Made by a program: the position numbers and the translations under genes. Positions 43,236 through 43,738 of a stretch of DNA of 64,000 nt are shown piece by piece (the first letter of the stretch is position 1; every line of letters starts with the position of its first letter). This DNA comes from the human T2T-CHM13v2.0 reference genome, Homo sapiens, in assembly GCF_009914755.1 (NCBI RefSeq), contig NC_060930.1; one strand, given 5' to 3'. The notes under the pieces were generated by a model. The model ran no database searches, had not been told where the DNA came from, and saw only the letters and a program-made list of their open reading frames with translations.

Positions 43236-43297
43236 CTACCTCTCTGACTTGGTCATCTTTATAGACTTCTCCAAGCTCCTATTGTTTCTCATTTCTT

Positions 43298-43723
43298 TTT
43301 CTTTTTTTTTAATTTGCTTTTTATTTTTGCCAGGCCCCTCCATCACACAGAAACATTTCATTTTTTAATCTATTTGCTGAGTGAAGGAGAACAATCAATT
43401 CAGCCACTTGAGCTGATTTAACTTTTTTTTTTTTTTTTTTTTTGAGACAGAGTCTCGCTCTGTCACCTAGGCTGGAGTGCAGTGGCATGATCTCAGCTCA
43501 CTGCAACCTCCGCCTCCCAGGTTCAAGCGATTCTTCTGCCTCAGCCTCCCGAGTAGCTAGGATTACAGGCATGTGCCACCACGCCCAGCTAATTTTTGTA
43601 TTTTTAGTAGAGACGGGGTTTCACCATGTTGGCCAGGCTAGTCTCGAACTTCTGACCTCATGATCTGCCAGCCTTGGCTTTCCAAAGTGCTAGGATTACA
43701 GGTATGAGCCTCAGCGCCTGGCC
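43298..43723 (-). mobile_element. AluS(g-like) plus 111-bp captured 3' flank plus second A-tail
   Basis: Alu 43423-43723, unique segment 43312-43422 matching 50019-50131, poly-T 43298-43310, and a degenerate 15-bp TSD. Confidence 0.85.
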
Positions 43724-43738
43724 TGTTTTGCATTTCTT

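What the first reader, a model, noticed from the sequence alone, without database searches (positions are those of the whole stretch)
43283..43738. Alu carrying 111 bp of another Alu's unique 3' flank, with the donor 6.7 kb away: candidate Alu-mediated 3' transduction
Seen, reading the - strand: Alu 5' end (43723), A-tail, 111 bp of unique sequence (43422-43312), then a second A-rich tail (43310-43298). The unit is bounded by a 13/15 direct repeat, tgtttctcatttctt (43283-43297) and tgttttgcatttctt (43724-43738). The 111 bp match the 3' flank of the Alu at 50131-50440 (50019-50131) with about 2 substitutions and 2 small indels. The donor has both of its TSD copies. The 43-kb unit has only the 3' one (tgatttaactttt, 43414-43426), and homology stops at the Alu 5' end, which gives the direction of transfer. 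Both Alus are Sg-like and share the non-consensus gattcTtctgcc. Established: 3' transduction is common for L1 and SVA but regarded as rare for Pol III-transcribed Alu. Inference: retrotransposition of a read-through Alu RNA. Caveat: the flanks are more alike than the Alu bodies (roughly 85% by eye) and the donor is very close, so Alu-Alu templated repair into an existing A-tail is a serious alternative.
Basis: partly seen in the sequence, partly recalled or inferred. Interest (0 to 1): 0.82.

Follow-up and report, generated by a model that had tools for sequence, protein, structure and literature searches.

The report
Alu tail carrying neighbour Alu's flank
An old human Alu repeat carries, inside its A-rich tail, a much younger 111-base copy of the DNA that follows a neighbouring Alu 6.7 kb away, which looks like a retrotransposon carrying flanking DNA along but is better explained by DNA repair that copied from the neighbour.

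Summary
On the - strand, a full-length AluS (43723..43444) is followed by an A21 tail. Then come 111 bp that match the 3' flank of the AluS at 50440..50161, a second short A-rich tail, and a 13/15 target-site duplication that brackets the whole unit.

The direction of transfer is right. The 50-kb flank sits in its ancestral context: two paralogous segments in the KHDC1 cluster carry it uninterrupted, without the Alu.

The retrotransposition reading fails a dating test. The flanks differ by 2 substitutions in 111 sites. The Alu bodies differ at 24 of 240 non-CpG sites (Fisher p = 0.004), and the site duplication at 2 of 15. The two Alus are no closer to each other than to unrelated Alus. A retrocopy landing within 6.7 kb of its source has a chance of about 4e-6.

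Best reading (0.65): two independent old Alu insertions, then a later DNA-templated event. A break or stalled fork in the 43-kb Alu's A-tail primed on the neighbour's A-tail, copied 111 bp, and rejoined in the remaining tail.

True Alu 3' transduction keeps about 5%. Primate orthologues would settle it; I could not reach them with these tools.

The parts
43444..43723 (-). Recipient AluS body, full length. An old, independent insertion.
   Evidence: It is 86.2% identical to the donor Alu. It differs from the window Alu consensus at 15/240 non-CpG sites. In the genome, 39 other Alus are 87-91% identical to it.
43423..43443 (-). First A-tail (pure A21). Proposed site of strand invasion or template switch into the donor's A-tail.
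   Evidence: The divergence change point lies just 5' of it, at 43456.
43312..43422 (-). 111-bp segment copied from the donor Alu's 3' flank. It includes the donor's 3' target-site duplicate (43426..43414 with the preceding A's) and an AATAAA at 43325..43320.
   Evidence: 2 substitutions and 2 indels against 50131..50019. There are no CpGs. There are 4 genomic copies in all.
43298..43311 (-). Second A-rich tail (T A9 G AAA). Read here as the remainder of the recipient Alu's original A-tail.
   Evidence: It sits directly before the 3' target-site duplicate. The reading itself is inference.
43283..43297 (-). 3' target-site duplicate of the recipient Alu, AAGAAATGAGAAACA.
   Evidence: 13/15 match to the 5' copy.
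43724..43738 (-). 5' target-site duplicate of the recipient Alu, AAGAAATGCAAAACA. Its first 10 bases are also the 3' site duplicate of the SVA.
   Evidence: The pre-SVA flank reads CAGTT|AAGAAATG..., a TT|AAGA nick site.
43739..45020 (-). SVA element (hexamer repeats, Alu-like part, VNTR, SINE-R part, A17 tail), inserted later at the same nick site. Its own 10-bp site duplication is AAGAAATGCA (45030..45021 and 43738..43729). It is not part of the event but sets the true 5' flank.
   Evidence: I named it SVA by eye from recalled knowledge of its structure; no repeat library was run.
50161..50440 (-). Donor AluS body.
   Evidence: It has both site duplicates. The empty site is seen in paralogues L003 and L004.
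50131..50160 (-). Donor A-tail (AAG then A27). The last A stands where the ancestral G of the site duplicate was.
50019..50130 (-). Donor 3' flank, the template of the 111 bp. It is ancestral sequence of a KHDC1-cluster duplicated segment.
   Evidence: The first TTTT on the sense strand comes only at offset 179 from 50131, and AATAAA at offset 100.

Best explanation
This is two events, not one.

(1) Two AluS elements of the same subfamily inserted independently, by ordinary L1-driven retrotransposition, 6.7 kb apart and in the same orientation. This happened tens of millions of years ago, and each has its own target-site duplication.

(2) Much later, the A-tail of the 43-kb Alu suffered a break or a stalled replication fork. 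The free 3' end, ending in Alu 3' sequence plus A's, paired with the long A-tail of the neighbouring Alu and primed DNA synthesis. That synthesis ran 111 bp into the neighbour's unique 3' flank. The new strand then came off at an A-rich patch (..AAAAATAAAAAGCAAAT) and was rejoined to the rest of the recipient's own A-tail.

The mechanism would be synthesis-dependent strand annealing finished by end joining, or a replicative template switch of the FoSTeS/MMBIR type. The donor stays unchanged. The product imitates a 3' transduction: Alu, tail, foreign flank, second tail, bracketing site duplication.

Shown: the anatomy, the direction of transfer, and the age gap between the Alu with its site duplication and the 111 bp. 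Inferred: the break, the priming in the A-tract, and the choice of DNA rather than RNA as template.
For: Age gap:
- The flank has 2 substitutions in 110-111 aligned sites and no CpG.
- The Alu bodies differ at 32/278 sites in the pairwise alignment, 40/280 in the 31-Alu alignment, and 24/240 at non-CpG sites.
- Fisher p = 0.0043 for 25/245 against 2/111. P(2 or fewer | expected 11.3) = 0.0009.
- The bracketing site duplication is also old: 2/15 mismatches, and P(2 or more | 1.8%) = 0.029.
- The best change point lies at 43456, one base 3' of the last Alu-body difference, with 2*dLL = 18.1.

No sister signal:
- Each Alu ranks only 2nd of 30 for the other. The 12 closest window Alus span 9.2-12.1%.
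- Private non-CpG changes number 13 (donor) and 12 (copy), against 3 shared. Two of the shared ones are carried by 11-12 of 31 Alus.
- In the genome search, 39 other Alus at 87-91% beat the donor's 86%.

Other points:
- The donor context is ancestral, and the paralogues show the empty site.
- The same 111 bp is 18-22% diverged from its paralogues, so it is not a slowly evolving stretch.
- Template and recipient lie 6.7 kb apart in cis. A proximity-dependent template switch expects this (FoSTeS passage in PMC2583991). For a retrocopy the chance is 4.3e-6.
- The second tail needs no polyadenylation if it is the recipient's own old tail.
- The proximal junction lies in at least 21 shared A's preceded by 13 identical Alu bases.
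Against: - No outgroup species could be examined, so no state 'Alu present, 111 bp absent' has been seen.
- The flank is short. The 95% Poisson interval for 2 changes is 0.2-6.5% divergence, and its upper end approaches the Alu values.
- Tests on one lineage at a time are not significant: copy 12/245 against 1/111, p = 0.07; donor 13/245 against 2/111, p = 0.16.
- The distal junction has at most 0-1 base of exact microhomology.
- The segment ends 8 nt after an AATAAA and is followed by A's. That is what a polyadenylated RNA intermediate would leave.
- The two Alus share one uncommon base, carried by 3 of 31 window Alus.
- The whole unit has exactly the layout a transduction predicts.
Confidence: 0.65

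Rival explanations
1. RNA-mediated late insertion. A short polyadenylated transcript of the donor's flank, cleaved after the AATAAA, was reverse-transcribed by the L1 machinery into the A-tail of the pre-existing 43-kb Alu. It was 5'-truncated or joined at the donor's A-tract by A/T microhomology.
For: - AATAAA at 43325..43320 lies 8 nt before the end of homology, followed by T A9 G AAA.
- This reading explains the young age of the 111 bp as well as the best explanation does.
Against: - The source 6.7 kb away would be a coincidence of about 4e-6.
- The hub's gene table for the window lists no - strand transcript across 50.0-50.5 kb.
- A pure A-tract on the sense strand lacks the TT|AA step seen at the two real L1-type sites here (inference).
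Confidence: 0.08
2. One reading: a genuine Alu 3' transduction. A read-through transcript of the 50-kb Alu plus 111 nt of flank was retrotransposed 6.7 kb away at about the time the donor was young. The flanks were later homogenised by gene conversion, or stayed alike by chance.
For: - The layout is exactly that of a transduction: full-length Alu, tail, source flank starting at the source's tail, second tail, and a 13/15 site duplication around everything with a TT|AAGA nick site.
- There is no TTTT in the 111 nt, so Pol III would read through.
- Both Alus share subfamily features and the base carried by 3 of 31 window Alus.
- An ancient event would leave the Alus as diverged as they are.
Against: - The flank is too young: P = 0.0009.
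- The divergence steps down exactly at the Alu 3' end. A later conversion confined to 111 bp is ad hoc.
- The segment ends 66 nt before the first TTTT, and a Pol III transcript has no poly(A) to give the second tail.
- The chance of landing this close is 4.3e-6.
- A screen of 118,489 full-length AluY in this same assembly confirmed no Alu transduction (bioRxiv 10.1101/2024.04.29.591526, parts 1-2 of 3 read).
Confidence: 0.05
3. Unequal crossover between the 3' ends or A-tails of the two Alus made a 6.7-kb tandem duplication. A later deletion then removed everything from 111 bp past the hybrid Alu's tail to within the original tail.
For: - It gives the same end product.
- The Alus are in direct orientation, 6.7 kb apart.
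Against: - It needs two rare events with both deletion ends in A-rich DNA.
- The crossover would have to lie in the last 13 bases or the tail, because the Alu stays diverged up to 43457.
- No other trace of a duplication is left.
Confidence: 0.05
4. Remnant of a segmental duplication, or a dispersed repeat that happens to lie beside two Alus.
For: The donor flank does belong to a duplicated KHDC1-cluster segment with 2 further paralogues.
Against: - Those paralogues are 78-82% identical and lack the Alu. The 43-kb copy is 96% identical to the 50-kb one only.
- Its homology to the family is limited to the 111 bp and starts exactly at the donor Alu's insertion site.
- There are only 4 genomic places.
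Confidence: 0.02

Closest known systems
L1- and SVA-type 3' transduction, and the few proposed Alu cases. As cited in bioRxiv 10.1101/2024.04.29.591526, these are Kojima's Alu monomer with a short transduced flank and the AluSx3+WaluSat composite of Hoyt et al.
   Same: The element is followed by its source's 3' flank and a second A-rich tail, and all of it is bracketed by one target-site duplication.
   Different: - Element and flank have different ages, and the element is not a detectable copy of the 'source'.
- The source is 6.7 kb away.
- The segment does not end at a Pol III terminator.
Templated insertion by template switching (FoSTeS/MMBIR; review PMC2583991, passages read). Also homologous repair completed by end joining: 'coupled homologous and nonhomologous repair', Richardson and Jasin 2000, recalled and not read here.
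   Same: - A copy of a nearby stretch is inserted while the donor is kept.
- One junction lies in shared sequence and the other in little or no homology.
- The template is physically close.
   Different: - The priming homology here is an Alu 3' end plus its poly(A) tract.
- The event is small (111 bp), fixed and old, not a disease or cancer rearrangement.
- I know of no described class of 'Alu-tail-primed capture of a neighbouring Alu's flank'. My two searches listed none, but they were not aimed narrowly at this.
Alu-Alu gene conversion (recalled from the Alu literature; not read here).
   Same: Non-reciprocal copying between two Alus that uses Alu homology.
   Different: The Alu body was not converted: differences persist to 14 bp from the tail. 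Only sequence outside the Alu was transferred.

Membership tests
Retroelement 3' transduction | The offspring carries the source's 3' flank, starting at the source's tail. | tested here: met
   homology runs from the A-tail for 111 bp and includes the donor's 3' site duplicate.
Retroelement 3' transduction | One target-site duplication brackets element, flank and terminal tail. | tested here: met
   13/15 match. The chance is about 0.6-0.8%. A later insertion into the tail predicts the same.
Retroelement 3' transduction | The offspring element is a copy of the source element, and element and flank have the same age. | tested here: not met
   - Non-CpG differences are 24/240 in the Alu against 2/111 in the flank, p = 0.004.
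- Each Alu ranks 2nd of 30 for the other.
- 39 genomic Alus are closer to the 43-kb Alu than the donor is.
- An ancient event followed by flank homogenisation would escape this test.
Retroelement 3' transduction | The 3' end of the transduced segment matches the transcript's end: a run of 4 or more T's for Pol III (validation rule of 10.1101/2024.04.29.591526), or a poly(A) site for Pol II. | tested here: inconclusive
   
- The first TTTT is at offset 179, downstream of the segment, so that paper's rule is formally passed.
- The segment ends at offset 113, not at the terminator.
- AATAAA at offset 100 would suit Pol II. Pol II, however, would not start at the Alu's first base.
Retroelement 3' transduction | Alu, flank and second tail always occur together in other species, and the empty site has a single target copy. 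| not testable with these tools
   No primate genome other than the window's own assembly is reachable.
DNA-templated insertion (SDSA with end joining, or FoSTeS/MMBIR) | The donor is retained and sits in its ancestral context. | tested here: met
   paralogues L003 and L004 carry the flank uninterrupted, without the Alu.
DNA-templated insertion (SDSA with end joining, or FoSTeS/MMBIR) | The template is close in cis. | tested here: met
   6.7 kb apart, same strand.
DNA-templated insertion (SDSA with end joining, or FoSTeS/MMBIR) | Homology or microhomology at the junctions. | tested here: inconclusive
   - Proximal junction: at least 21 A's plus 13 identical Alu bases.
- Distal junction: an A-rich patch beside an A-rich tail, but only 0-1 base of exact overlap.
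DNA-templated insertion (SDSA with end joining, or FoSTeS/MMBIR) | The insert is younger than the recipient element. | tested here: met
   This is statistical and rests on 2 substitutions in 111 bp.
Segmental duplication / dispersed repeat | Homology extends beyond the unit, or there are many genomic copies. | tested here: not met
   no extension, and 4 genomic places.

The most novel reading that the evidence does not exclude
This is after all a true, ancient AluS-driven 3' transduction whose offspring landed 6.7 kb from its source, with the flank pair later homogenised. It would be one of very few Alu transductions on record, set against a screen of 118,489 AluY that confirmed none.
Probability: 0.05. 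Interest if true: 0.7.

Novelty: new member of a known kind. Interest (0 to 1): 0.33.

Why it matters
Whether Pol III-transcribed Alus can carry flanking DNA is an open, rarely tested question. The only systematic screen I found (AluY only) confirmed none.

This locus passes the structural tests that such screens use:
- a bracketing site duplication;
- a source flank at 90% identity or more;
- the same subfamily, as far as the window alignment shows;
- a terminator downstream of the segment.

It still fails on dating. It is therefore a worked example of a transduction look-alike made by DNA repair. It argues for adding two checks to transduction callers: compare the age of the element with that of the flank, and look at the distance to the source.

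It also shows that Alu A-tails can act as priming homology for short templated insertions. I have no evidence that the insert has any function. A RefSeq enhancer feature at 42757-43578 covers it, but I did not examine that.

Tried and rejected
- Segmental duplication: rejected, no homology beyond the unit.
- Dispersed repeat: rejected, 4 places only.
- Recent copy of the donor Alu: rejected, 13 donor-private non-CpG changes are not shared.
- A recent copy of some other, already diverged Alu joined to the flank by reverse-transcriptase template switching: I found no near-identical parent. The best was 90-91% among 40 scored of 2525 first-look candidates. That search is incomplete.
- APOBEC-type editing to explain the extra Alu changes: not supported. 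By my hand tally of the copy-private rows, 7 are G-to-A and 7 are C-to-T. Editing would also not explain the donor's private changes.
- Selective constraint on the 111 bp: rejected, it is 18-22% diverged from its paralogues.
- Other such pairs in the window: among 34 Alu 3' flanks, only this pair shares a flank starting at the tail. Four weaker matches (77.6-87.7%) start inside the flanks and I did not examine them.
- Orthologous primate loci and human population data: no tool reaches them.
- Alu subfamily naming (Sg or other): not tested, because no repeat library is on hand. I relied only on a consensus of 31 window Alus.

Full report
**What is there**

Coordinates below run in - strand order.
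- A full-length Alu occupies 43723..43444.
- It is followed by a pure A21 tail (43443..43423).
- Next come 111 bp (43422..43312). These align to the sequence directly after the A-tail of the Alu at 50440..50161 (50131..50019), with 2 substitutions and 2 indels (3 bp and 1 bp).
- After the 111 bp comes a short second tail, T A9 G AAA (43311..43298).
- The unit is bracketed by AAGAAATGCAAAACA (43738..43724) and AAGAAATGAGAAACA (43297..43283), identical at 13 of 15 positions.

With up to 2 mismatches, the 15-mer has 3 matches in the window against 0.56 expected. A match this good in the 301 bp downstream arises in 110 to 153 of 20000 random trials.

1. An SVA lies immediately 5' of the unit on the same strand (45020..43739). 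I identified it by eye from its hexamer repeats, GC-rich VNTR and SINE-R-like 3' part; no repeat library was run. It has its own 10-bp site duplication, AAGAAATGCA (45030..45021 and 43738..43729). Removing it restores the Alu's true 5' flank..CAGTT|AAGAAATGCAAAACA|GGCC.., a TT|AAGA nick site. This strengthens the 15-bp duplication as a real L1-type target-site duplication.

2. The 111 bp has four places in the whole assembly:
   - the two in the window (100% and 96%);
   - two more at chr6:74407335-74407433 (82%) and chr6:74422846-74422955 (78%), in the KHDC1 cluster.

   These two paralogues match the 50-kb locus on both sides of its Alu but lack the Alu. They read ..CTTCTCCCAGAAGTTAAATCAGCTCAAG.. 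without interruption. So the 50-kb flank is ancestral there and the donor Alu's empty site is seen. The donor's duplication AAAAGTTAAATCA is confirmed, and the direction of transfer is 50 kb to 43 kb. The 43-kb copy keeps the ancestral G that the donor's 3' duplicate has since lost.

3. The 43-kb locus shares nothing else with the 50-kb locus or the paralogues except Alu-to-Alu matches. It is therefore neither a segmental duplicate nor a dispersed repeat.

**Dating**

A retrotransposed unit should have one age. It does not.
- The flank has 2 substitutions in 110-111 sites and no CpG.
- The Alu bodies differ at 32 of 278 sites in a pairwise alignment. In an alignment of 31 window Alus they differ at 40 of 280 sites, and at 24 of 240 non-CpG sites.
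- Fisher's test on 25/245 against 2/111 gives p = 0.0043. The chance of 2 or fewer flank changes when 11.3 are expected is 0.0009.
- The site duplication has 2 mismatches in 15. That is unlikely at the flank's divergence (P = 0.029) and unremarkable at the Alu's (P = 0.45).
- A change-point scan puts the drop in divergence at 43456, one base after the last Alu-body difference and 13 bases before the tail (2*dLL = 18.1).
- The 111 bp is not a slow stretch. It is 18-22% diverged from its paralogues.

At recalled rates of 1.0-1.5e-9 per site per year, the flanks split about 6-9 My ago and the Alus about 36-54 My ago. The interval on 2 events is wide (0.2-6.5% divergence). Tests on one lineage at a time do not reach significance (p = 0.07 and 0.16).

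**Kinship of the two Alus**
- Against the window consensus, the donor has 13 private non-CpG changes and the copy 12. Only 3 are shared, and two of these are carried by 11-12 of 31 Alus (subfamily features).
- Both Alus also lack a CT dinucleotide that 10-11 of 31 lack.
- Each Alu ranks 2nd of 30 for the other at non-CpG sites, at 10.0%. The 12 closest window Alus span 9.2-12.1%.
- In the genome search, 39 other Alus are 87-91% identical to the 43-kb Alu. The donor, at 86%, is not among the 40 scored of 2525 candidates.

The 43-kb Alu is therefore not a recent copy of the donor. This test cannot exclude an ancient copy made while the donor was still near its subfamily consensus.

**Mechanism**

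The simplest account has two steps: an ordinary old AluS insertion with its own site duplication, then a later DNA-templated insertion into its A-tail.

In the second step, a 3' end in the tail, from a break or a stalled fork, paired with the long A-tract of the neighbouring, co-oriented Alu. It was extended 111 bp into that Alu's flank. It then left the template at the A-rich patch AAAAATAAAAAGCAAAT and was joined to the rest of the recipient's tail, which now forms the 'second tail'.

This explains several things:
- the age step at the tail;
- the unchanged donor;
- a second tail without polyadenylation of a Pol III transcript;
- the 6.7-kb distance.

Template switching is held to depend on physical proximity (FoSTeS passage in PMC2583991). 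For a retrocopy, landing this close is a coincidence of 4.3e-6. The break itself, the priming site, and DNA rather than RNA as template are inferences.

**Rivals**
- An RNA-mediated late insertion into the tail is suggested by an AATAAA 8 nt before the end of the segment. It shares the proximity problem.
- A true transduction needs four things: an event type not confirmed once among 118,489 AluY in this assembly (bioRxiv 10.1101/2024.04.29.591526, parts 1-2 of 3 read; AluS were not screened, and Alus overlapping segmental duplications were excluded there); a landing 6.7 kb from the source; an RNA end 66 nt short of the first TTTT; and a later homogenisation confined to the 111 bp.
- An unequal crossover followed by a large deletion gives the same product but takes two rare events.

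**Verdict**

This is a transduction look-alike and a new instance of known repair mechanisms. It is of modest interest, mainly as a caution for screens for Alu transduction. Primate orthologues would decide the matter, and I could not reach them with these tools.

Noticed in passing
window 43729-43738 and 45021-45030, with the SVA at 43739-45020 (- strand): The SVA used the same TT|AAGA nick site as the older Alu. It inserted into the Alu's 5' target-site duplicate and duplicated its first 10 bases, so the motif AAGAAATG now occurs three times in 1.75 kb.
   Followed up: partly
L003 (chr6:74405835-74408933) and L004 (chr6:74421346-74424455), which correspond to window places about 67835-70933 and 83346-86455, outside the window: The region upstream of KHDC1P1 (window about 49.4-51.1 kb) has paralogous segments near KHDC1L and inside the KHDC1 span. 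Identity is 78-89% in the unique parts, and the Alu content differs: the donor Alu is absent from both, and L003 has Alus that the window copy lacks.
   Followed up: partly
window 50131-50160 and 43423-43443: Both A-tails are long and almost pure (A27 after AAG, and A21) although both Alus are old. This is consistent with the 43-kb tract having been copied, at least partly, from the donor's tract, or with slippage growth. I did not analyse it further.
   Followed up: no
window 43354-43372: Two indels against two substitutions in 111 bp is a high indel share. A 3-bp loss lies between short AG repeats, and one A was gained in an A-run. This could reflect error-prone copying at the time of the event, but the numbers are too small to test.
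   Followed up: no
window 42757-43578: The hub's table lists a RefSeq enhancer feature that covers the 111 bp, the tails and the 3' half of the recipient Alu. I did not examine it.
   Followed up: no
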